Shown piece after piece: positions 5,993-28,795 of a DNA stretch of 64,000 bases. Source of the stretch: Gammaproteobacteria bacterium. Lineage in GTDB: Bacteria > Bacteroidota > Bacteroidia > Flavobacteriales_D > JABDKJ01. Numbering within the stretch: the stretch's first letter is position 1; every line of letters begins with the position of its first letter. Made by a program: the position numbers and the translations under genes. The notes below the pieces were generated by a model. It saw only the letters and a list, made by a program, of their open reading frames with translations. It did not search any database and was not told the DNA's origin. The stretch is taken from positions 16,988 to 80,987 of the forward strand of contig JBLIMR010000003.1 in the NCBI GenBank assembly GCA_047638815.1. Reading direction: 5' to 3'.

Positions 5993-7501
5993 GTGATTAA
6001 ATGGTTTAACATATTGTTGTTGTGTTTAGTGACTGGGGCATTTGATGCTCAGTTCACTTATTTCAACGAAATTTGTGGAGAATTGAGCGATACCTTAGGT
6101 GATACATTTACCGATGTTGAAATCATTAACGATACAATATATACTTATGGAGCCTATGCTGATCCTAGTGGCCAATATTTGCAATTGAAAAAATATGATC
6201 GTACTGGTGAACTTATTATTTCAAAAGAGTTTGAACTAGACAACAACACGACATATTTTATTGAATTTAAATACTCCTATGTGAAAGATAATAATAGTGA
6301 AAACCTCTACTTCAGTTTTGGTTTAAGCGATAGCATTAGCTCCAGAGGTATTGTTGGCAAGGTCAACGAAGACTTAGATACTCTCTGGACCAAACAATAT
6401 GATCACTATAATCCCCATACGTACTTAAGAGGAAATTTGGATATTGACGATGGAATAATTTTAGTCGGTGAAATAGAATCTGATGGCTCCCAAAGGGGCA
6501 CCATGCTAACGAAAATAGATTATGATGGTATTATTATTTGGGATGAAGTACTGGGACATGCAAATGGGAATATAAATCGCAACGCAAATGTTATTAGAAA
6601 AGGTGGCTATTTGTTTCTTGGAGGATCGGTAAGATCCGATGGCATTTTAGTCGGTCTTTTAACTAAAACTGATTTAAACGGCAATGTGTTATGGGAAAAT
6701 TTTTATGATGACTCGCAAGAACCCATCGAAACCAATTCTAGTTCATATACTGTAGAAATTTTGGATAGTGGAGATGCAATCTCCGTTAATTCTGTAGATA
6801 ATGAATCTGCAGGGCCATCAACATTGGATTGGTACATAAAGGTTATAGTTAATAAAGTGGATTTTGAGAATGATTCCATTTATTGGGAGTAACAATAATT
6901 AGACAACTATGAATCACAGAATGGCGGTGTGATAAAAGTTGTCCCAACGGCTGAAGGTGGCATGATTATTTTGGGTGGTGATCTTAATGGTGATTTAGTA
7001 AGCTGGCTCTTGAAAATAGACGAAGATGGCATCCAAGAATGGCATAAACATTATGGCTATGAAATTGGTTACCAACACTTCAATCAGCCCTTCGATGTAG
7101 AGCAATGTTCCGATGGCGGCTATCTTATTGTTGGAAAATATACCAACTGGAATGAACCAGGTACCCAAGCTAGATCATGGATGGTAAAAACTGATCCCTG
7201 TGGGGATATAGAATGGAATGGTTGTGTGCCAGTGGGTATTGGTGATATTGAGATGATTGATCAGGAGGATGTGAGGTTGTATCCTAATCCTACAGCGGGC
7301 AATTTCACAATACAACTTGCTAACTTGTTTCATAATGGGGAAGTTCAAATATATAATATGATGGGAAGCTTGGTATACCATAAAAGAATCAATGGAGAAA
7401 AAAGTGGTCACGCTTTGAATTTAAATTCAGGTATATATCTCATTAATTTATTGGAAGAAAATCGGGTTGTCTGGTTGGAGAGGTTGGAAATTGTGCGGTA
7501 A
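5993..7501 (+). pseudogene. T9SS type-A CTD secreted protein (propeller-like repeats) interrupted by two in-frame TAA codons
   Basis: ORFs 5993..6892 and 6929..7501 share a frame. The junction reads YWE-TAA-CAA-TAA-LDNYESQNGGVIKVV. Signal peptide in part 1; CTD (LYPNP...YNMMG...SGIYLINL...LEIVR) in part 2. Confidence 0.8.
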
Positions 7502-8467: not shown

Positions 8468-9550
8468 TTAACTACGATCCCCTGCTTTTAGTTTTTCTGT
8501 GTTTTCGGCCATTTTTAGCGACTCTATTATTTCATCGATGTCACCATCAATGATATTTCCTAGGTTGTATAAGGTCAGGTTGATTCTGTGATCCGTTACT
8601 CTTCCTTGGGGATAATTGTATGTTCTAATTTTTGCAGATCTATCACCTGAACTTACCATTGACTTTCTATGGATTGCATCCTCTGCCAACTTCTTTTGCA
8701 ACTCCAATTCATAGATTCTTGATCGCAATACTTTCAAGGCCTTGTCGTAGTTTTTCAACTTTGATTTCTGATCTTGACATTGCGCTACAATTCCAGTTGG
8801 AATGTGGGTTAATCGAATGGCTGAATATGTTGTATTCACGGATTGACCTCCGGGTCCTGAAGAGCAAAACTCATCTCTTCTTATATCTGATTTATTTAAC
8901 ACAATGTCAAACTCATCGGCCTCTGGCAATACGATGACCGTAGCCGCTGAAGTATGCACCCGTCCCTGAGTTTCCGTTTGTGGCACACGTTGAACACGGT
9001 GAACTCCGGCCTCAAACTTTAGCTCCCCATATGCTCCAGGTCCATTAACATTGAAAATAACTTCCTTAAATCCACCAGATGTTCCGTCACTCTGGTCCAC
9101 CATTTCCATTTGCCAACCTTTATCAGAAATATATTTAGCATACATCCTCATGAGGTCTCCAGCAAAAAGACTGGCTTCATCTCCGCCCGTCCCAGCACGA
9201 ATTTCCATTACCGCATTCTTGTCATCTTCCGGATCCTTGGGAATGAGCATCATTCTAATCTCCGCATCCATTTTGACCTTAGTTTCCTCAAGTTCTCCCA
9301 ACTCGGACTTGGCCATATCTTTGAATTCAGGGTCGTCCTCTGTACTTATAATTTCTTTGGAGGAATCAATGTTCTCAAGAACATCTCTATACTTTTCATA
9401 CACCTCAACAAAAGCTTCAAGATCTTTATATTCTTTCATCAATTTGGTGTAACGCTTCATGTCCGTAATAATATCCGGATCTACGATTTGTTTTGCAACC
9501 TCTTGATGACGTTCGGCAATGATTGAAAGTTTGGTGAGATAATTACTCAT
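8468..9550 (-). CDS. prfA: Peptide chain release factor 1
   Basis: [23 protein letters not shown] (PxT), GPGGQSVNT and [15 protein letters not shown]. Confidence 0.97.
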
Positions 9551-9554
9551 ATAT

Positions 9555-9631
9555 AAGTGAAAAGGGAAAAGTTAAAAAAGAAAAGTGATCCTTCGACAAG
9601 CTCAGGAACCAAATAGTTAAAAGCTAAAATA
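9555..9631. repeat. Heptamer tandem repeat with an embedded REP-like unit (CCTTCGACAAGCTCAGG, 9590-9606)
   Basis: aagtgaa-aagggaa-aagttaa-aaaagaa-aagtgat, then CCTTCGACAAGCTCAGG, then tagttaa-aagctaa. The 17-mer resembles the CTGAGCTTGTCGAAG intergenic repeat common in Bacteroidota. Confidence 0.6.
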
Positions 9632-9632
9632 G

Positions 9633-10802
9633 CTAACGGTAAATGAATTCACCGTGTTTGGATTTTATGGTCAATTTCTTTTCGGTGCTTTCCTCCACTC
9701 TCCCGACAATCTGTGCATCCACATTATAACTTTTGGAAATGCGAATCACATCTTCTGCAATTTCTTCAGGTATGTACAGTTCCAACCTACTTCCCATATT
9801 GAAAACCTTGTACATTTCTTTCCAATCAGTCTTCGATTCTTCTTGAATGATTTGGAACAATGGCGGTTCATCAAATAGATTGTCTTTTACAATATGAAGG
9901 TTGTCAATAAAGTGCAATATCTTTGTTTGGGCTCCACCACTACAATGTACCATTCCATTAATCTTAGATCGGAATGACTTGAGAATCTCAGCCACAATTG
10001 GCGCATATGTTCTAGTTGGTGAAAGCACAAGCTGCCCCATGTTGACATCAAGACCTTCTACTTCGTCTGTTAACTTTTTAGATCCGCTATAAACCAAATC
10101 TTCAGGCACCAAAGGATCAAAAGTCTCTGGATATTTTTCAGCCAAGTACTTACCAAATACATCATGGCGTGCAGACGTAAGGCCATTACTGCCCATACCT
10201 CCGTTGTATGCATCTTCATAAGTTGCCTGACCATAAGACGCCAATCCAACAATAACATCCCCAGCTTTTATATTGGCGTTGTTAATTATATCAGATCTTT
10301 TTGCCCTTGCAAAGGCAGTAAAACCTACATCTAATGTTCTAACTATATCTCCAACGTCTGCAGTTTCACCTCCAGCGAGCACAATACCCACACCCTGAGA
10401 TCTAAGTTTTTCCAAATATGTTTCAGTCCCCTGAATAAGTTCTTTGATCACAGCGCCTGTAATCAAGTTTTTGTTTCGGCCAATGGTAGACGATAAAACA
10501 ATGTTATCTGTAATACCGACACAGATGAGATCATCAATATTCATAATGATGGCATCCTGAATAATGCCTTTCCATACACTTTCATCACCCGTCTCCTTCC
10601 AATATGCATATGCCAATGAAGGTTTTGTTCCTGCCGTATCTGCGTGCATTACATTACAATACTCTTCATCCCCGCCAACCAAGTCGGGAAGAATTTTACA
10701 GAAGGCTTGAGGAAAGAGCCCCTTGTCTAAGTTTTTAATGGCAGCATGTACATCTTCCTTATCTGCTGAGACTCCTCTTGATTGATATTTTGTATTCATC
10801 AT
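9633..10802 (-). CDS. purM: Phosphoribosylformylglycinamidine cyclo-ligase (AIR synthase, Bacteroidota type)
   Basis: RGVSADKEDVH, GGETADVGD, GMGSNGLTSARHD and EMYKVFNMG; directly upstream of prfA. Confidence 0.9.
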   Translation of the reverse strand: MMNTKYQSRGVSADKEDVHAAIKNLDKGLFPQAFCKILPDLVGGDEEYCNVMHADTAGTKPSLAYAYWKETGDESVWKGIIQDAIIMNIDDLICVGITDNIVLSSTIGRNKNLITGAVIKELIQGTETYLEKLRSQGVGIVLAGGETADVGDIVRTLDVGFTAFARAKRSDIINNANIKAGDVIVGLASYGQATYEDAYNGGMGSNGLTSARHDVFGKYLAEKYPETFDPLVPEDLVYSGSKKLTDEVEGLDVNMGQLVLSPTRTYAPIVAEILKSFRSKINGMVHCSGGAQTKILHFIDNLHIVKDNLFDEPPLFQIIQEESKTDWKEMYKVFNMGSRLELYIPEEIAEDVIRISKSYNVDAQIVGRVEESTEKKLTIKSKHGEFIYR

Positions 10803-23481: not shown

Positions 23482-24618
23482 CTAATTGAGTATTCTAATT
23501 TCGCCTGAATCTTGATTGTTACGATACTTAATGTTATAAATGTATAAACCCATTGGTAAGATTTGATCATTGGAATCGTGGCCCTTCCAAACATTCGCTC
23601 CATTGGAATCTAGTTGTTTTGCATAAACCAATTGACCACTCTTTGCATTATAAACCTCCAGATTAGCATTCTTGTCGAATGTTAATTCAATGGGTATTTC
23701 CCAAAATACACTCTGTGACTGGGATATAATAATGTCACAGTTCCGTTCTCCAACCTCAACAATAGTTGGATTACTCTTGCATCGATTTCCATCCAGTACC
23801 ATAACGTTATAATTTCCTTTTGCAAGAGTATTAAATTCTCTTTCCAGTTGCGGATAATTATCATCTATCATAAAAGAATAATTTTGAGGGAATTCTTCGT
23901 TTCTAATCTTTATGCGACCATTATTTTTATCTGAGCATGATGGAATTACATCTATATCCAGTGTCACAGAATAGCTATCACAAATGACTTTCTCTTTATG
24001 GGCAGTTTCTTCAGATGTGCCCAGGACACCTTCAAGTGGAGCCAAAACATCGGGCTTTACCGTTAACCGAACCAATTCTGAGAGCGCCTCTTTTTTTATC
24101 ATTTCTGAAATATTTGAAGCATCAATATTCGCCTTAGCCGCTGGCTCAAAAACATTTTCATTCATTCTTCCATCGGTCTTGTTTACTACACTCTGAAATG
24201 AATCAACCTTATCGCTTTTCACAATTAATTTTGCTGTTGACTCTATATCTGTTCTTTGATCTTCAAAAACCTCATCTTTGCTTGTGATTTCTGAATTTGA
24301 TTTAGAATCAAACACATTGTCTTTTGATTCTGAAAGATAAATCCAAGATCCAGCCGAAACTAAAATGACAAGTACAGTTAGTCCACTCCAAAATCCTTTG
24401 AATCCAGAACTTTTCAGATGAATACTTTTCAGTTCCCTTTTAATTGATGCTAATTCCTTATTCCTAATCAGTTGATTTGCCGCTTTATGATTTTGCAAAT
24501 ATTGCTCGAAACCATTTTCAACTAAACGTCTTCTTTCAAATTCCATTAAGGCATCCCCAGAAAGTTTTCCGTCTAGAAAATTCTGTATCAATTCATATGT
24601 TCCCAAACCTTTATTCAT
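23482..24618 (-). CDS. Putative anti-sigma factor: cytoplasmic N-domain, TM helix, linker, SprB-like repeat, type-B T9SS CTD-like C-terminus
   Basis: IQNFLDGKLSG...FE N-terminus; one TM (FWSGLTVLVILVSAGSWIYL); PSCSDKNNGRI...FNTLAKGNYNVMVLDGNRC; C-terminal VYNAKSGQLVY...WKGHD...LPMGLYIY. Overlaps the sigma gene by 8 nt. Confidence 0.7.
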   Translation of the reverse strand: MNKGLGTYELIQNFLDGKLSGDALMEFERRRLVENGFEQYLQNHKAANQLIRNKELASIKRELKSIHLKSSGFKGFWSGLTVLVILVSAGSWIYLSESKDNVFDSKSNSEITSKDEVFEDQRTDIESTAKLIVKSDKVDSFQSVVNKTDGRMNENVFEPAAKANIDASNISEMIKKEALSELVRLTVKPDVLAPLEGVLGTSEETAHKEKVICDSYSVTLDIDVIPSCSDKNNGRIKIRNEEFPQNYSFMIDDNYPQLEREFNTLAKGNYNVMVLDGNRCKSNPTIVEVGERNCDIIISQSQSVFWEIPIELTFDKNANLEVYNAKSGQLVYAKQLDSNGANVWKGHDSNDQILPMGLYIYNIKYRNNQDSGEIRILN

Positions 24619-25189
24619 CGAATAAATAATCTTTTAACCCTTTCTTGTCTTTTACTAAAAGAACCAATCGCTGTTTGCATTTATAGTTCTTGGTTTTAGC
24701 GGCATTGGCATTAGAGAATCCCATGCGAAGCGCTATATCTTCCATGGACATTTTATAAAAAACACTATAAGTTAGTAGCTCCTCACATCTCGCGCCCAGC
24801 TCAGCGAGCAGAGAGGATATTTTCATTTCATTTTCTTCTGATATATCAATTTTTTCAGAAACATCAGGCACTTGATAAGGAAGCTCTCCGCTCTCTCGAT
24901 TAACAAGTTTCACTCTGTTAATCCACATGTTTTTAGCTGATGAAAAAATGAAAGCTGTAACACTTTTAGTTGCATCGAATTTATCATCCAATACATAGTT
25001 GTAAAACGACAAAACTGCATCTTGAAAAACATCCTGAGCATCATCATTGTTTCCACTGTTTTTAATAATCCACCCTGTAACTTTTGGCTGAACAGTTTTG
25101 TACAAAAAATTCAATACCTGGTTTGACTCTGCATTTTTTATCAATGCAATAATCTCCTGATCACTATATGTTTTTTGACGCTTGAACAC
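24611..25189 (-). CDS. ECF-type RNA polymerase sigma-70 factor
   Basis: DAQDVFQDA (region 2) and SMEDIALRMGFSNANAAKTKNYKCKQRL (region 4). Confidence 0.92.
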   Translation of the reverse strand: MFKRQKTYSDQEIIALIKNAESNQVLNFLYKTVQPKVTGWIIKNSGNNDDAQDVFQDAVLSFYNYVLDDKFDATKSVTAFIFSSAKNMWINRVKLVNRESGELPYQVPDVSEKIDISEENEMKISSLLAELGARCEELLTYSVFYKMSMEDIALRMGFSNANAAKTKNYKCKQRLVLLVKDKKGLKDYLFDE

Positions 25190-25191
25190 GA

Positions 25192-27774
25192 CTATCTAAT
25201 AACGGTTATCTTTCGGATTACTTCCGTTTCCTTACACCTCAGAATATATTCTCCCATAGGCAATGTCAGACCGTTTCCATCGGTTCCTTGCCAATATTCT
25301 TGGCTAATCAATTCAGTAACTACAATCCCGTTTCTATCATATACAGTGACATTGCCGCAAGAGAGCTTTACTTGATCATCATATCCATCGTTATTAGGAG
25401 TGATAATATTCGATTCTGGTGTGTTGGCCATAAATTCTATCGGCTTACAAATGGTTATCGAGCAATTATCCGTCAAGTTGAAATTCGTCATGCAAACATT
25501 ATATGCATTTGGAAATGAAAATTGATGGGTGGGGTTCTCCTCAATACTAGAGTTACCATCACCAAAATCCCAAGAATATTCTGTCCCAGTTCCACTACTA
25601 ACAAAACTGTAATAGCTTCCAATATTTACATAACTGAAGTCGGCATCGATCTGACAAGCGCACTCATCACAATCACACTGATCTTCTGAAGGAATTGCAC
25701 AAGAGAATAGTAATCCTGACACAAACTGAGACATAACGATTTGACTTACATGACCAGTAAATATCACTGTCCCAGAAAACCAATAATCAGCCAATGGATA
25801 TTCGCTATTTAATGCATTTGTATCTACCGTTAATTCAATGTCATCAATTACGTATGGTTGATTTAGGTATATCGTCTCAAGTGATACAGCATCTCCCCCA
25901 TTAACGGAAAAAAAAGTTTGATTGCCCCACACGGAACTAATATCATCCCAATTAAAAAATCCGTAAACACCTATCGAAATCTCCTTATGTGTGCTATCAA
26001 AATCCATTTGGTATTCACCCTCATCAAGGTATATTCCTGGTGCATTTGGATCGTTATTATCCTCTGTGTAATCGTTACAATCCGATTCTTCCTCCACAAT
26101 AGGCATCGTACATGAGGATAGTAAACCCCACTCCATTTGATTCAGTGTAATATTACTAATATTTCCCGTTAGAGTTACAGTCCCTGTATTCGTTCCTTCC
26201 CAATAGAGGTAATCGCCAGGTATAGCATTGGTGTCTAATTCAATGACTACATCATTGAAAGTATAAGGTGAATTTAGAACAATGGTCTCTAGTGTCACGT
26301 AATCCCCGTTAATATTAATTGAAGCGTAAGGTAAAAGACCACCTTGCGCATCCGCAATCCAATCCGCAAACACGCCATATACCCCTAAGGATACTTCTTG
26401 GTATGTGCCATCATAATTCAAGGTGTAATCATCCCATAGAAGCCAGATTCCAGGTAAACTTGGATCACTATTCCATTCAGTATAATTTATGCAATCGTCA
26501 AGAAATGTAGGCTCTGTACATGAAAACAATAATCCAGATTCAAATTGCGTCATAATAATTTCCTCAATAGCCCCAGTAAAAGAAATAGTAGCCGAGGTCC
26601 AATCAAAAGAAGATTGAGAAAGATATTCATCATTTAAAGAAGTCAAGTCCATATCAATAAAAAGGTCACCCAACAGCATGGGGACATTTTGTTGAATATA
26701 TTTCAATGACAAGGATTGCCCGTTCTCGAACGTGAAAATAGTTTGATTTTGTTGACCACTAGTAGACCAGTTGTCAAATAGTCCGTATACGCCCATTGCC
26801 ACAGTCTGATAAGATCCATCGAATGGGATTACAACATCTGAACCACCATATATCCCAGGAAAATTGGGGTCGTTATTATCCTCAGTGTAATCCTCACAAT
26901 CTATCAGCAATCCTTGTCCCTCAACACATAAAAACTTAATACCTGATTCTACTTGATGGGTAATAATCAAATCTATTTCCCCTTCAAAAATTATCGTTCC
27001 CGAAATCATATTGTCTGGCACATTATAACTTGCCGGGATTGCAGTTGTATCGATCGTAATTGCAACACCCCCTATCATATATGGTTGGTTTTCATAAATC
27101 GTCCCTAGCCCAATCATTTCACTTCCGTTAACGGAGAAGAAACTTTGATCTACTGACATATCAGTCACTTGATCCTCAAACGATATATAATCGAAATAAC
27201 CAATGCTCACTTCTATCTCTTCACCACTAAAAGCGAATCGATAAGCATTGGTAATTATATATCCCGGAAATCCTGGGTCGTCCCCTTCAAATTGATAATC
27301 ATGGCCGGTTATTTCCTCTAGCGAATCAACACATGAAAAAAGCAATCCAGACTCAAACTGAGTCATCGTAATGTTGTTAATTGCACCTGTAAATTTCACT
27401 GTTCCCGAAGTCCAAATTGATGATGCGTTCGGAAGATATTCATCGTTAATAGAGGTTGTATTTAAGGATACATAAACCCCATTAATAAAGGTCAAAAAAT
27501 CGGTTAATTCTGAAACGGCAATTGGCTCACTGCCGTTAACAGAAAAGAATGTTTGATTCGCCTGAGAATCATTAGACCAACCTTCAAAAAATCCATATAT
27601 ACCAAGCTCTACTTCTTGATTGGTTCCATCATAATCTATGGAGAAGTCACCGCCACCATATATACCTGGGTCATTATCGGTCCCCTCTGTTTCATAGTAG
27701 TTGTTACATTCCTTTGCATTAATAGATAAAATACTGATGGCCAACATTGAAATTATGAACGATATTTTTTTCAT
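25192..27774 (-). CDS. Secreted repeat protein: five ~134-aa repeats, PKD domain, type-B T9SS (gliding-motility-associated) CTD
   Basis: Signal peptide; repeats C..Y.E...DP..PGIY...GVYG...FFSVNG...SGT..FTG....QFESGLLFSC; PKD YSWDFGDG...NPTHQF; CTD NIITPNNDGYDD...VYDRNG...WQG...LPMGEY. Confidence 0.88.
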   Translation of the reverse strand: MKKISFIISMLAISILSINAKECNNYYETEGTDNDPGIYGGGDFSIDYDGTNQEVELGIYGFFEGWSNDSQANQTFFSVNGSEPIAVSELTDFLTFINGVYVSLNTTSINDEYLPNASSIWTSGTVKFTGAINNITMTQFESGLLFSCVDSLEEITGHDYQFEGDDPGFPGYIITNAYRFAFSGEEIEVSIGYFDYISFEDQVTDMSVDQSFFSVNGSEMIGLGTIYENQPYMIGGVAITIDTTAIPASYNVPDNMISGTIIFEGEIDLIITHQVESGIKFLCVEGQGLLIDCEDYTEDNNDPNFPGIYGGSDVVIPFDGSYQTVAMGVYGLFDNWSTSGQQNQTIFTFENGQSLSLKYIQQNVPMLLGDLFIDMDLTSLNDEYLSQSSFDWTSATISFTGAIEEIIMTQFESGLLFSCTEPTFLDDCINYTEWNSDPSLPGIWLLWDDYTLNYDGTYQEVSLGVYGVFADWIADAQGGLLPYASININGDYVTLETIVLNSPYTFNDVVIELDTNAIPGDYLYWEGTNTGTVTLTGNISNITLNQMEWGLLSSCTMPIVEEESDCNDYTEDNNDPNAPGIYLDEGEYQMDFDSTHKEISIGVYGFFNWDDISSVWGNQTFFSVNGGDAVSLETIYLNQPYVIDDIELTVDTNALNSEYPLADYWFSGTVIFTGHVSQIVMSQFVSGLLFSCAIPSEDQCDCDECACQIDADFSYVNIGSYYSFVSSGTGTEYSWDFGDGNSSIEENPTHQFSFPNAYNVCMTNFNLTDNCSITICKPIEFMANTPESNIITPNNDGYDDQVKLSCGNVTVYDRNGIVVTELISQEYWQGTDGNGLTLPMGEYILRCKETEVIRKITVIR
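25699..27708 (-). repeat. Five intragenic ~400-bp domain repeats
   Basis: Protein repeats span aa 23-692. DNA 26051-26082 and 26870-26901 match at 29 of 32 positions. Confidence 0.85.
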
Positions 27775-27802: not shown

Positions 27803-27832
27803 ATACAATTTCATTTTCAAAATGTAACCCCT
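27803..27832 (-). promoter_or_regulatory. Putative ECF promoter, copy 1 (AGGGGTTAC-N15-TTGTAT)
   Basis: Minus strand AGGGGTTAC attttgaaaatgaaa TTGTAT, 28 nt upstream of the repeat-protein ATG; same boxes and spacing as copy 2. Confidence 0.7.
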
Positions 27833-27838
27833 GCTTCA

Positions 27839-28744
27839 TTAAAAAATGGTGTATTGGCATGTTAATTCAAATGCATTGACATTGGTTCTTGTATTATTAA
27901 GATTGGGTGCAAAATATCCCAACTCAAAATTTAGTCTATTGTTTTTCTTAGCCTTTCTGTCTTCGAAATTTTTTGTAAAACCATTCAGCCCAAGAAAAAA
28001 ATGAGTTCCCTCCTTTGCTTCATAAGATGCTCCAAAATTGACTAAAGACTTTAATGCAAATTTCAGCCCCATACCACCACGAATATCATCCTGATCTCGG
28101 TTAAGATCCGCGTATCTCACAAAAGCTAAAGGTCTAATGACCATACTTGCATTTAGCAAGATGTCATGGCTATAGCGTAAGTTATAAATTGGTTCTAATC
28201 TTATAATTTGTTCCAGTGGTTGAACCTCACCTCCATTAAGTTGATTAACAGAAAAACTTAGATATTGAGAATTACTATATAAGTGCAATCCAACACCAAA
28301 ATCTTCAGTCACAGAATTCGCTCCTCCTGTTACAGGATTCGATTTAATGGTAAAGTTGTACAATCCAACATTCAGTCCTGCTGCCAACATCCACTTCTCT
28401 GATATGGCTAGATGACGACTATAAGACAAAAAAGTTCTGTTCCGCCTGATTACATCTCCCTCCCTATCATTGTTAAAGTGAATCCCTAATACATGAAAGT
28501 TTCTATCTCGTTTTAAAATCCGGCTATTGAAAGAAGCGTAAGATGTTTTTACACCTGAAAAAACACCTGAATTTTGCTTAGTGCCCAGTGAGAACTCAAA
28601 ATCGCCTTCTGAACCAGCTTGTGCAGGATTTATCTGTGGGTTGTTAAAAAACTGTCCGAAATGAATTGGCAGCTCATCTATCTGAGAAAAACCAACATGA
28701 GAGCAAATAAATAAAAGAAGGAATAAGGATAGTCGTTTGGCCAT
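27839..28744 (-). CDS. PorP/SprF family T9SS outer-membrane beta-barrel
   Basis: Signal peptide, FGQFFNNPQINPAQAG N-terminal motif, alternating beta strands, C-terminal NAFELTCQY; adjacent to a type-B CTD gene. Confidence 0.85.
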   Translation of the reverse strand: MAKRLSLFLLLFICSHVGFSQIDELPIHFGQFFNNPQINPAQAGSEGDFEFSLGTKQNSGVFSGVKTSYASFNSRILKRDRNFHVLGIHFNNDREGDVIRRNRTFLSYSRHLAISEKWMLAAGLNVGLYNFTIKSNPVTGGANSVTEDFGVGLHLYSNSQYLSFSVNQLNGGEVQPLEQIIRLEPIYNLRYSHDILLNASMVIRPLAFVRYADLNRDQDDIRGGMGLKFALKSLVNFGASYEAKEGTHFFLGLNGFTKNFEDRKAKKNNRLNFELGYFAPNLNNTRTNVNAFELTCQYTIF

Positions 28745-28765: not shown

Positions 28766-28795
28766 ATACAATCGAAAAATATAAAAGTAACCCCT
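28766..28795 (-). promoter_or_regulatory. Putative ECF promoter, copy 2 (AGGGGTTAC-N15-TTGTAT)
   Basis: Minus strand AGGGGTTAC ttttatatttttcga TTGTAT, 21 nt upstream of the porP-like ATG. Confidence 0.7.

What the first reader, a model, noticed from the sequence alone, without database searches (positions are those of the whole stretch)
23482..24618. Inner-membrane anti-sigma-like protein ending in a T9SS type-B sorting-like domain
Seen: a ~70-aa N-domain (IQNFLDGKLSG..FE), one uncleaved TM helix, a ~120-aa polar linker, one SprB-like Cys-pair repeat, and a C-terminus (VYNAKSGQLVY..WKGHDSNDQILPMGLY) resembling the neighbouring cargo's CTD (VYDRNGIVV..WQGTDGNGLTLPMGEY). A secretion-signal-like domain on a membrane-tethered protein is unusual. 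Inference: the linker spans the periplasm so the CTD mimic can dock on PorP or the translocon. Binding, competition with cargo or pulling could then trigger proteolysis and sigma release, making it a sensor of secretion capacity. Its CTD lacks the clear TPNxDG motif that the cargo has.
Basis: partly seen in the sequence, partly recalled or inferred. Interest (0 to 1): 0.8.

Follow-up and report, generated by a model that had tools for sequence, protein, structure and literature searches.

The report
Anti-sigma factor carrying a secretion-tag mimic
A membrane-bound inhibitor of a sigma factor ends in a diverged copy of the type IX secretion tag carried by the surface protein that this sigma factor appears to switch on, so the cell may gauge that protein's export route before making more of it.

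Summary
ORF 23482-24618 (-) encodes 378 aa: a helical N-domain, one TM helix, a 109-aa disordered linker, one SprB-type Ig domain with four Cys, and a C-terminal domain matching Pfam CHU_C above cut-off (35.2 vs 27 bits) but lacking the profile's first 17 positions, where the cargo has TPNNDG.

It belongs to a conserved family. All 23 aligned members match CHU_C. The gene always follows, and usually overlaps, an ECF sigma gene. Of 22 loci with at least 3 kb upstream, 22 hold a PorP/SprF-like gene and 20 hold a cargo with a related tail.

A motif, GGTTAC-N16-TGTA, sits just upstream of the cargo gene and of the first gene of the sigma unit. It occurs 35 times in 359 kb of family loci against 2 times in 533 kb of control loci. 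The sigma therefore most likely drives the cargo.

A complex model docks the tail on the cognate PorP-like barrel (0.78; best control 0.05), on loops inferred to be extracellular. These are the loops T9SS carriers present inside the translocon.

The best reading is a trans-envelope anti-sigma factor that reports the carrier or secretion state. Binding, processing and the direction of signalling are untested. My searches found no paper describing it. Closest known are the Dma anti-sigma factors and PorA-PorY signalling. This scan has noted analogous proteins on other DNA.

The parts
28767..28792 (-). ECF-type promoter-like motif GGTTAC-N16-TGTA, 22 nt upstream of the PorP/SprF-like gene
   Evidence: One of only 5 exact hits in the 3.29-Mb genome. 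The same motif is found upstream of porP in L038 and L039.
27839..28744 (-). PorP/SprF-family outer-membrane carrier, 301 aa, with a signal peptide and a 14-strand barrel
   Evidence: PF11751 scores 101.4 bits and TIGR03519 scores 98.1 bits, both above cut-off. The AF2 model has 14 strands. It is the lowest-scoring of the 10 clear PorP paralogues in the genome.
27804..27829 (-). Second copy of the promoter-like motif, 29 nt upstream of the cargo gene
   Evidence: A motif lies upstream of the cargo gene in every one of the 8 first loci that has a cargo.
25192..27774 (-). Cargo, 860 aa: signal peptide, five internal repeats of unknown family, a PKD domain, and a diverged type-B CTD containing ITPNNDG
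   Evidence: PKD_4 scores 32.5 bits. CHU_C scores 22.1 bits and TIGR04131 scores 23.5 bits, both below cut-off. The genome-wide CHU_C scan gives 26.5 bits, or 27 with neighbouring matches.
24611..25189 (-). ECF sigma factor, 192 aa
   Evidence: TIGR02937 scores 55.2 bits against a cut-off of 42.9, and Sigma70_r2 scores 27.1 bits. Homologues with an invariant AKTK[NH]YKCK motif occur in all module loci.
24400..24618 (-). Target aa 1-73: cytoplasmic three-helix N-domain, the presumed sigma-binding module
   Evidence: Conserved in 23 homologues. The same domain on proteins with other architectures follows the sigma homologue in 43 of 48 non-module loci. The nearest named Atlas clusters are DUF4880, zf-HC2 and RseA_N at 0.82-0.86, which are leads only.
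24331..24396 (-). Target aa 75-96: single transmembrane helix, N-in
   Evidence: This is the only hydrophobic 19-mer, and the positive-inside count is 4 against 2. It is continuous with helix 37-96 in the AF2 model.
24004..24330 (-). Target aa 97-205: disordered polar linker
   Evidence: pLDDT is below 50. Length is 85-134 aa, median 108, in 52 members, with no sequence conservation.
23734..24003 (-). Target aa 206-295: SprB-repeat-type Ig domain with four Cys
   Evidence: It matches the repeats of giant SprB-repeat proteins. pLDDT block means are 90 or more from about aa 211.
23485..23733 (-). Target aa 296-378: diverged type-B CTD (CHU_C) with 'II.P.Q...WEIPL' in place of TPNGDG.ND. This is the predicted contact surface for the PorP-like barrel.
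   Evidence: CHU_C matches 23 of 23 members. The modelled interface residues run from 297 to 378 only.

Best explanation
The 378-aa protein is the membrane anti-sigma factor of the ECF sigma encoded just upstream of it. Together with the PorP/SprF-like carrier and its type-B-CTD cargo it forms a self-contained four-gene module.

The cytoplasmic N-domain holds the sigma. One TM helix and a roughly 110-aa disordered spacer carry an Ig domain and a diverged copy of the cargo's sorting domain across the periplasm. The sigma recognises GGTTAC-N16-TGTA promoters in front of the cargo gene and in front of its own transcription unit.

The CTD mimic docks on the loops of the cognate PorP-like carrier. 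By analogy with PorV, these loops are presented inside the SprA translocon and can be reached from the periplasm. Cargo synthesis is thereby coupled to the state of that carrier or secretion route. Engagement most likely leads to loss of the anti-sigma factor and release of the sigma.

Shown: the architecture, the conserved module, and the position and specificity of the motif. Supported only by a model: CTD-carrier docking. Inferred: sigma binding, the trigger, and the direction of the signal.
For: Architecture.

Family: 23 of 23 aligned members match CHU_C, and the 50 complete members of 52 match my own profile of this tail.

Sigma pairing: the start codon overlaps the sigma stop by 8 nt. 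Of 80 loci found with the sigma alignment, 32 have sigma followed by an N-Ig-CTD protein. In 43 of the other 48, an N-domain protein of another architecture follows the sigma.

Module: of the 22 family loci with at least 3 kb upstream, 22 have a PorP-like gene and 20 have a cargo with a related CTD. Eleven loci are co-directional and 15 divergent, and the flanking genes differ.

Promoter motif:
- 14 exact hits in the first 8 loci, all just upstream of module genes.
- 35 exact hits in 359,359 b of the 32 family loci, 29 of them next to a module gene. My composition estimate of the chance expectation is about 0.8.
- 2 hits in 532,662 b of the 48 other loci.
- In the window's own genome 5 hits. 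Two are in this operon and the other three lie inside genes.

Docking: the ipSAE score is 0.78 (runs 0.80, 0.78, 0.77) against a best of 3 controls of 0.05. The runs agree in at least 88% of contacts and the partner's pLDDT is at least 83. In the tool's calibration this mark was reached by 58 of 80 solved complexes and 2 of 110 mismatched pairs, and the tool says these counts hold only roughly with my own alignments. No homologue of either chain has a solved structure by sequence.

The contacted PorP residues (58-65, 95-99, 133-139, 176-179, 285-289) fall in alternate loops of the 14-strand model. These are extracellular if the C-terminus is periplasmic. T9SS substrates bind the extracellular loops of their carrier inside the SprA pore, entering from the periplasmic end (PMC10994853, abstract and passages).

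CTD tree: 30 of 31 anti-sigma CTDs form one group (support 0.88). Anti-sigma plus module-cargo CTDs (65 of 67) separate from 27 canonical CTDs of the same genome (support 0.987).

The genome has SprA, 10 clear PorP paralogues and about 30 CHU_C proteins.

Precedents: Dma1 is an anti-sigma factor with an N-terminal sigma-binding region, a TM helix, a long disordered region crossing the periplasm and an outer-membrane domain (PMC10927553, passages). The PorA CTD acts as a periplasmic ligand of PorY (PMC12152298, abstract).
Against: - Sigma binding by the N-domain was not tested. No anti-sigma Pfam family matched at E<=1. The PDB profile search returned only irrelevant weak hits. Atlas scores of 0.82-0.86 are below that tool's own bar.
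- The tail does not match TIGR04131 and lacks the first 17 positions of CHU_C. Every stronger CHU_C match in this genome (27 of 27) starts at profile position 2-5. In SprB all five conserved CTD motifs were needed for secretion (PMC12618676, section 10). The tail may therefore not be handled as a normal signal.
- The docking is a model, and the face of the barrel is my inference from the strand order.
- Interface residues are barely more conserved than the rest of the tail: 0.59 against 0.51.
- The tail is no closer to its own locus's cargo CTD (19-28% identity overall) than to other loci's, so there is no sign of locus-specific co-evolution.
- 13 of 32 family loci have no exact motif next to a module gene. 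In the three divergent loci among the first eight (L040-L042) no motif lies upstream of porP.
- One genome (G027) keeps only an N-terminally truncated copy, far from a sigma remnant.
Confidence: 0.55

Rival explanations
1. The tail senses cargo rather than the carrier. The CTD-like domain stays in the periplasm and binds unsecreted cargo, or a factor that handles its CTD. The sigma then responds to a periplasmic backlog of cargo, as the PorA CTD does through PorY.
For: The tail and the module's cargo CTDs are sister groups. The PorA CTD is reported to bind the sensor kinase PorY in the periplasm (PMC12152298, abstract). The altered first motif fits a domain that is no longer exported.
Against: The model places the tail confidently on the carrier. 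A spacer of 85-134 aa kept across 52 members is not needed for a sensor that stays close to the inner membrane.
Confidence: 0.15
2. The protein is a secreted anti-sigma factor. Its C-terminal half is a genuine T9SS substrate, cut from the anchor and exported, so that working secretion removes the inhibitor. This is FlgM-like logic.
For: The Ig-plus-CTD unit resembles the C-terminal end of giant SprB-repeat cargo. Two hits cover aa 228-372 and 226-373 at the very end of proteins of 1992 and 3192 aa. The tail docks in the canonical carrier position in the model. Dma1 is found as C-terminal fragments in outer-membrane vesicles (PMC10927553, passages).
Against: There is no conserved cleavage motif after the TM helix. 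The first CTD motif is replaced throughout the family, and all five motifs were required for SprB secretion.
Confidence: 0.15
3. The C-terminal domains are an ordinary Ig-like sensor with no mechanical link to T9SS. They recognise some envelope or external cue, and the pair merely regulates its neighbours.
For: 17 of 23 members also match FlgD_ig. Foldseek hits are generic Ig/FN3 tandems. The same N-domain is combined with many other periplasmic parts.
Against: 23 of 23 members match CHU_C. The tail groups with the module's cargo CTDs. A PorP-like gene is present in 22 of 22 assessable loci. The docking model passes its controls.
Confidence: 0.1
4. The protein is not an anti-sigma factor. The hydrophobic segment is a signal peptide, or the true start is internal, and the protein is a small conventional T9SS cargo.
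For: G027 carries a copy without the N-domain.
Against: The N-domain is conserved in 23 homologues and starts at the sigma stop. The only alternative start codons before the TM helix are at codons 5, 10, 25 and 41. The positive-inside count and the continuous helix 37-96 argue for an anchor.
Confidence: 0.03

Closest known systems
[quoted passage not shown]
   Same: Both have an N-terminal sigma-binding region in the cytoplasm, one inner-membrane helix, a long intrinsically disordered region across the periplasm, and a C-terminal part that belongs at the outer membrane. Both are in Bacteroidota. Proteolysis is the proposed trigger.
   Different: Dma proteins end in their own 8-strand outer-membrane barrel. 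This protein ends in a soluble Ig domain plus a T9SS type-B sorting-like domain. It would reach the outer membrane only through a separate PorP/SprF-like barrel and the T9SS. Its regulon appears to be one T9SS cargo rather than vesiculation genes. Sequence relatedness to Dma or Das proteins was not tested, because no Dma sequence was in hand.
Type-B CTD cargo with a cognate PorP/SprF-like carrier (SprB-SprF, Fjoh_3952-Fjoh_3951, PG1035-PorP; PMC12618676 abstract and sections 10 and 12; PMC9143113 abstract)
   Same: A C-terminal CHU_C-type beta-sandwich is preceded by an SprB-type repeat. A cognate PorP/SprF-like gene is adjacent. In the model the tail docks on the carrier's loops.
   Different: There is no cleavable signal peptide; instead there is a cytoplasmic domain and a membrane anchor. 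TIGR04131 is not matched. The first conserved motif region is replaced by 'P.Q...WEIP' in the whole family.
PorA-PorY-PorX-SigP signalling in Porphyromonas gingivalis (PMC12152298 abstract; PMC7712824 abstract and passages)
   Same: A T9SS CTD serves as a signalling element that links secretion to an ECF sigma.
   Different: PorA is a free secreted protein whose CTD binds a histidine kinase. Here the CTD-like domain is fused directly to the anti-sigma factor, and the output appears to be one cargo operon rather than T9SS components.
Cell-surface signalling trios (FecA-FecR-FecI; Bacteroides SusC-like transducer / anti-sigma / ECF sigma). Recalled, not read here.
   Same: An inner-membrane anti-sigma factor contacts an outer-membrane barrel, and an energised machine may supply the trigger.
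   Different: There is no FecR domain, no TonB-dependent transducer and no N-terminal signalling extension. The barrel is a T9SS carrier.
FlgM / sigma-28 flagellar checkpoint. Recalled, not read here.
   Same: An anti-sigma factor carries the export signal of the secretion system whose late substrates its sigma controls.
   Different: FlgM is soluble and is exported whole by a type III system. This protein is membrane-anchored, and its export is unproven.

Membership tests
T9SS type-B C-terminal sorting domain (PF13585 CHU_C / TIGR04131) | Match to PF13585 above the gathering score | tested here: met
   35.2 bits against 27, E 1.3e-8. 23 of 23 family members match at E<=0.01.
T9SS type-B C-terminal sorting domain (PF13585 CHU_C / TIGR04131) | Match to NCBIfam TIGR04131 above cut-off | tested here: not met
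   No hit at E<=1. The only CTD hit is type A TIGR04183, at 17.2 bits against a cut-off of 23.
T9SS type-B C-terminal sorting domain (PF13585 CHU_C / TIGR04131) | Conserved N-terminal motif of the domain (TPNGDG.ND, profile positions about 1-17) | tested here: not met
   The match starts at profile position 18. The family consensus there is II.P.Q...WEIPL. All 27 stronger CHU_C matches in the genome start at position 2-5. That this region equals 'motif A' of PMC12618676 is my inference, because the figure was not visible.
T9SS type-B C-terminal sorting domain (PF13585 CHU_C / TIGR04131) | Domain at the extreme C-terminus, with an adjacent PorP/SprF-like gene | tested here: met
   The domain ends at residue 378 of 378. 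A PorP-like gene is present in 22 of 22 assessable family loci.
T9SS type-B C-terminal sorting domain (PF13585 CHU_C / TIGR04131) | Cleavable Sec signal peptide at the N-terminus of the protein | tested here: not met
   A conserved 73-aa domain precedes the only hydrophobic segment.
T9SS type-B C-terminal sorting domain (PF13585 CHU_C / TIGR04131) | T9SS-dependent export | not testable with these tools
   This needs fractionation in wild-type cells and T9SS mutants.
ECF anti-sigma factor (single-pass, class I-like) | Gene directly downstream of an ECF sigma gene and co-transcribed with it | tested here: met
   8-nt overlap. An N-domain protein follows the sigma in 75 of 80 loci.
ECF anti-sigma factor (single-pass, class I-like) | Match to a known anti-sigma domain family (zf-HC2, RskA, FecR/DUF4880, RseA_N) | tested here: not met
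   No such Pfam or NCBIfam hit at E<=1. The PDB profile search gave nothing relevant. Atlas neighbours DUF4880 (0.86), zf-HC2 (0.86) and RseA_N (0.82) are leads only.
ECF anti-sigma factor (single-pass, class I-like) | Short cytoplasmic helical domain followed by one N-in TM helix | tested here: met
ECF anti-sigma factor (single-pass, class I-like) | Binds and inhibits its sigma | not tested
Dma (dual membrane-spanning anti-sigma) family | C-terminal outer-membrane beta-barrel on the same polypeptide | tested here: not met
   The C-terminal 170 aa model as two beta-sandwich domains, not a barrel. The barrel is a separate gene product.
Dma (dual membrane-spanning anti-sigma) family | N-terminal anti-sigma region, TM helix and a long disordered periplasmic region | tested here: met
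FecR-type cell-surface signalling | FecR domain and a TonB-dependent transducer partner | tested here: not met
   No FecR or DUF4880 hit was found, and the partner barrel is PorP_SprF.

The most novel reading that the evidence does not exclude
The anti-sigma factor is a force-sensing decoy substrate. Its tethered tail enters the SprA pore from the periplasm and is gripped by the loops of the cognate PorP-like carrier. The proton-motive-force-driven step that normally drags carrier and cargo out of the translocon then pulls on the 85-134-aa tether instead. This pull triggers cleavage or extraction of the anchor and releases the sigma. Cargo would then be made only when the translocon, a free carrier and the motor are all working. 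That would be a T9SS counterpart of the FlgM checkpoint, in a protein that briefly spans the whole cell envelope.
Probability: 0.25. Interest if true: 0.9.

Novelty: new variant of a known kind. Interest (0 to 1): 0.72.

Why it matters
How Bacteroidota match the synthesis of individual T9SS cargo to the capacity of their dedicated carriers is unknown. Only the PorXY-SigP-PorA circuit of P. gingivalis has been studied.

This module offers a compact four-gene system that can be tested genetically. In it the sensor appears to be a copy of the secretion signal itself, wired straight to a sigma factor. It occurs in at least two cultured strains, Chryseosolibacter histidini PWU4 and Xanthocytophaga flavus NT2B1 (record titles).

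If the tail does engage the carrier, three things would follow:
- It would be a second, mechanistically different class of envelope-spanning anti-sigma factor beside the Dma family.
- It would show how a type-B CTD is recognised when it cannot be released.
- It would give a natural reporter of T9SS activity.

Tried and rejected
- The search for related loci with the full-length alignment A1 failed because no stretch was conserved enough. I used the genome search instead, and later search for related loci with the sigma alignment.
- The word-indexed protein search found only one homologue. The exhaustive search was needed to find the family.
- The full-length protein is rare. Among 61 relatives, only G000, G027 (N-truncated) and G047 (two contig-end copies) gave matches beyond the SprB repeat and tail domains alone. 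In the class, 7 of 401 genomes matched at E<=1e-25.
- Foldseek on the whole model gave only generic Ig/FN3 tandems, among them PorU, GhpA fragments and the RgpB CTD, with TM scores of 0.22 or less relative to the query. This was not informative.
- The PDB profile search with the N-domain gave nothing relevant.
- I looked for cognate tail-cargo similarity in a pairwise identity matrix and found no clear bias.
- Interface conservation against the rest of the tail was 0.59 against 0.51, which does not discriminate.
- I checked the three other genomic motif hits. All lie inside coding regions, so I treat them as chance.
- Expression: no RNA holder was listed among 22 runs.
- Literature: searches for an anti-sigma factor with a type-B CTD returned no paper that describes one. 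From the listings I opened PMC7712824 and PMC9723704 (passages), and neither mentions such a protein.
- The signal-peptide reading was rejected; see the rival explanations.
- Not done: a complex of the N-domain with the sigma, of the cargo CTD with PorP, or of swapped pairs, because the complex cap is 1.
Full report
**1. What is there**

On the minus strand lie four tightly packed genes.
- 27839-28744 encodes a 301-aa PorP/SprF-family outer-membrane protein. PF11751 scores 101.4 bits and TIGR03519 scores 98.1 bits, both over cut-off.
- 25192-27774 encodes an 860-aa secreted protein with a PKD domain and a weak type-B CTD. CHU_C scores 22.1 bits and TIGR04131 scores 23.5 bits, both under cut-off.
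- 24611-25189 encodes a 192-aa ECF sigma factor. TIGR02937 scores 55.2 bits.
- 23482-24618 is the finding, 378 aa. Its ATG overlaps the sigma stop by 8 nt.

The 378-aa protein has these parts:
- A helical N-domain.
- One hydrophobic segment at aa 75-96, with more K/R on the N side.
- A stretch at aa 98-205 that AF2 cannot order, with pLDDT below 50.
- Two confident beta domains at aa 210-378.

The last domain matches Pfam CHU_C above the gathering score (35.2 against 27 bits), but only from profile position 18 onward. It does not match TIGR04131. The preceding domain has four Cys and matches the repeats of giant proteins. Three of those that I scanned are built of Pfam SprB repeats.

**2. It is a family, and the gene order is conserved**

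The exhaustive search returned about 22 full-length homologues of 360-393 aa. In their alignment the following are conserved, while the linker is not:
- the N-domain (TY.LIE.YLN..LS...E.R...D..F..YVE.HK.AN);
- the TM helix;
- the four Cys;
- the tail.

Where canonical tails have TPNGDG.ND, this family has II.P.Q...WEIPL. All 23 aligned members match CHU_C, and 17 also match FlgD_ig.

The protein is rare. It was found in 7 of 401 genomes sampled from the class at E<=1e-25. It was not found in the other 7 genomes of its own family at full length.

I fetched the surroundings. The same four genes occur in the window and in loci from five other genomes, in two arrangements. One arrangement is porP-cargo-sigma-anti in a single direction. 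The other has sigma-anti diverging from porP-cargo. The flanking genes are unrelated between genomes.

A scan of one genome per species, using the sigma alignment, gave 80 loci.
- In 32 of them the sigma is followed by an N-Ig-CTD protein.
- Of the 22 with at least 3 kb upstream, 22 have a PorP-like gene and 20 have a cargo with a related tail. Eleven loci are co-directional and 15 divergent.
- Six of these 32 loci are the same DNA as loci fetched earlier, so the two sets are not independent.
- In 43 of the remaining 48 loci the sigma is followed by a protein with the same N-domain but a different periplasmic part. I had seen the same in three loci earlier.

The N-domain is thus the constant partner of this sigma clade, which is the behaviour of an anti-sigma domain. 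No known anti-sigma family matched, however. The Atlas neighbours DUF4880, zf-HC2 and RseA_N score 0.82-0.86 and are only leads.

By their record titles, the module loci come from Flavobacteriales, Cytophagales, 'Sphingobacteriales' MAGs and one Saprospiraceae MAG. They include Chryseosolibacter histidini PWU4 and Xanthocytophaga flavus NT2B1.

**3. What the sigma controls**

Aligning the upstream regions by eye showed GGTTAC, 16 bases, then TGTA.
- In the first eight loci there are 14 exact copies, all just upstream of a module gene and correctly oriented. Every cargo gene has one. So does the first gene of the unit that contains the sigma, which is porP in co-directional loci and the sigma gene in divergent loci.
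- In the window the two copies are at 28767-28792 and 27804-27829.
- The whole 3.29-Mb genome holds only five exact copies, against 12 for the reversed control pattern. The other three lie inside coding regions.
- Across the 32 family loci there are 35 exact copies in 359,359 bases, 29 of them next to a module gene. From base composition I estimate about 0.8 by chance. In the 48 other loci there are 2 copies in 532,662 bases, and one of those sits beside a sigma remnant of a decayed module.
- Thirteen family loci, mostly the more distant Cytophagales ones, have no exact copy next to a module gene.

The geometry (a -35-like element, a 16-nt spacer, a -10-like element, then 11-55 nt to the start codon) fits an ECF promoter. 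I conclude, by inference, that the sigma is autoregulated and that its main target is the cargo gene.

**4. Where the tail may go**

The genome has the T9SS translocon SprA, ten clear PorP/SprF paralogues and about 30 CHU_C proteins. The module's PorP is the most divergent of the ten.

In a tree of 94 distinct tails, 30 of 31 anti-sigma tails form one group (support 0.88). Together with the module's cargo tails (65 of 67) they separate from the genome's 27 canonical tails (support 0.987). The domain is short, the tree is unrooted and the supports are FastTree local values. Taken at face value, the tail is a relative of this module's cargo signal.

The one complex job was given the mature PorP-like protein and aa 206-378, each with its alignment.
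- The score was 0.78 (three runs: 0.80, 0.78, 0.77). The best of 3 controls was 0.05.
- The runs agree in at least 88% of contacts, and the partner's pLDDT is at least 83.
- In the tool's calibration the mark was reached by 58 of 80 solved complexes and 2 of 110 mismatched pairs. The tool says these counts hold only roughly with my own alignments.
- Only the tail (297-378) touches the barrel. The contacts include the segment that replaces TPNGDG.
- No homologue of either chain has a solved structure by sequence, so memory of a like complex is unlikely.

In the 14-strand model of the barrel, the contacted residues lie in the loops between strands 1-2, 3-4, 5-6, 7-8 and 13-14. With the C-terminus in the periplasm, as is usual for outer-membrane barrels (my inference), these are the extracellular loops.

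That is exactly how T9SS substrates are held. They enter the SprA pore from the periplasmic end and bind the extracellular loops of the carrier that protrude into the pore. The energy-requiring step then pulls carrier and substrate away. Type-B substrates are expected to use the same cycle with other carriers (PMC10994853, abstract and passages).

The linker is 85-134 aa (median 108) in 52 distinct members and 63-84% polar or small residues. At about 0.36 nm per residue (general knowledge) it could stretch to roughly 30-48 nm. I judge this enough to reach the outer membrane. I did not look up the width of the periplasm.

**5. Mechanism**

I commit to a trans-envelope anti-sigma factor. Its cargo-signal mimic engages the cognate carrier, so that the sigma, and with it cargo synthesis, reports the state of that carrier or secretion route.

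I think it more likely that engagement inactivates the anti-sigma factor, with competition from cargo giving negative feedback. The direction of the signal, any proteolysis, and whether the C-terminal half is ever released are all untested.

The bolder version, a pulling force from the T9SS motor as the trigger, is given as the novel case. The rivals are a cargo-sensing tail, a genuinely secreted anti-sigma factor, a generic Ig sensor, and a mis-called signal peptide. Each is listed with its evidence.

**6. Comparison with what is known**

The nearest described systems are these.
- The Dma anti-sigma factors of Bacteroides have the same layout of sigma-binding N-terminus, TM helix and long disordered periplasmic region, but end in their own outer-membrane barrel (PMC10927553).
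- Type-B CTD and PorP/SprF carrier pairs (PMC12618676).
- The PorA CTD acting as a periplasmic ligand of PorY upstream of SigP (PMC12152298, abstract).

The protein fails defining features of each:
- It has no barrel of its own.
- It has no signal peptide, no TIGR04131 match and no first CTD motif.
- It has no FecR domain.

It may work like these systems but is not a member of any of them.

My searches found no paper describing an anti-sigma factor that ends in a type-B CTD. This scan's own notes report analogous proteins in other genomes, from Bacteroidales, Elusimicrobiota and Goldbacteria. I did not check those claims, and no look-alike of this sequence was on file.

I rate the finding a new variant of a known kind, with interest 0.72.

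Noticed in passing
L043 (G027:C2) 9486-10526 and L100: One genome keeps only an N-terminally truncated copy of 346 aa. It has no N-domain and no adjacent sigma, but it still matches CHU_C at 34.5 bits. A 145-aa sigma remnant with the promoter motif lies about 30 kb away on the same contig. This looks like a decaying or rearranged module.
   Followed up: partly
L044 and L045 (G047), L056: The module can be multiplied. One genome has two copies on separate short contigs. Another locus (L056) has two PorP-like genes and four cargo-like genes ahead of a single sigma/anti-sigma pair.
   Followed up: no
window 25192-27774: The cargo contains five internal repeats of roughly 140-150 aa (...NDP..PGIYGG...FFSVNG...SGLLFSC) that matched no Pfam or NCBIfam family. 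Cargo proteins in other loci differ widely in size (196-848 aa) and share mainly the tail.
   Followed up: partly
L041 and L042, cargo genes: In one lineage the cargo tails have themselves lost the TPNGDG motif (VVVVGNQTES, TVILGKGGKK). The motif is therefore not strictly needed within this PorP subfamily.
   Followed up: no
window 7301-7438 (within ORF 6929-7501, +): A 190-aa ORF gives a weak, sub-threshold CHU_C-like match of 21.5 bits, at profile positions 17-66, in the genome-wide scan.
   Followed up: no
L040-L042 and nine of the twelve other divergent loci (all except L067, L068, L072): In divergent modules the exact motif precedes the sigma gene and the cargo gene but usually not the PorP-like gene. 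The carrier may therefore be expressed independently of the sigma in those genomes.
   Followed up: partly
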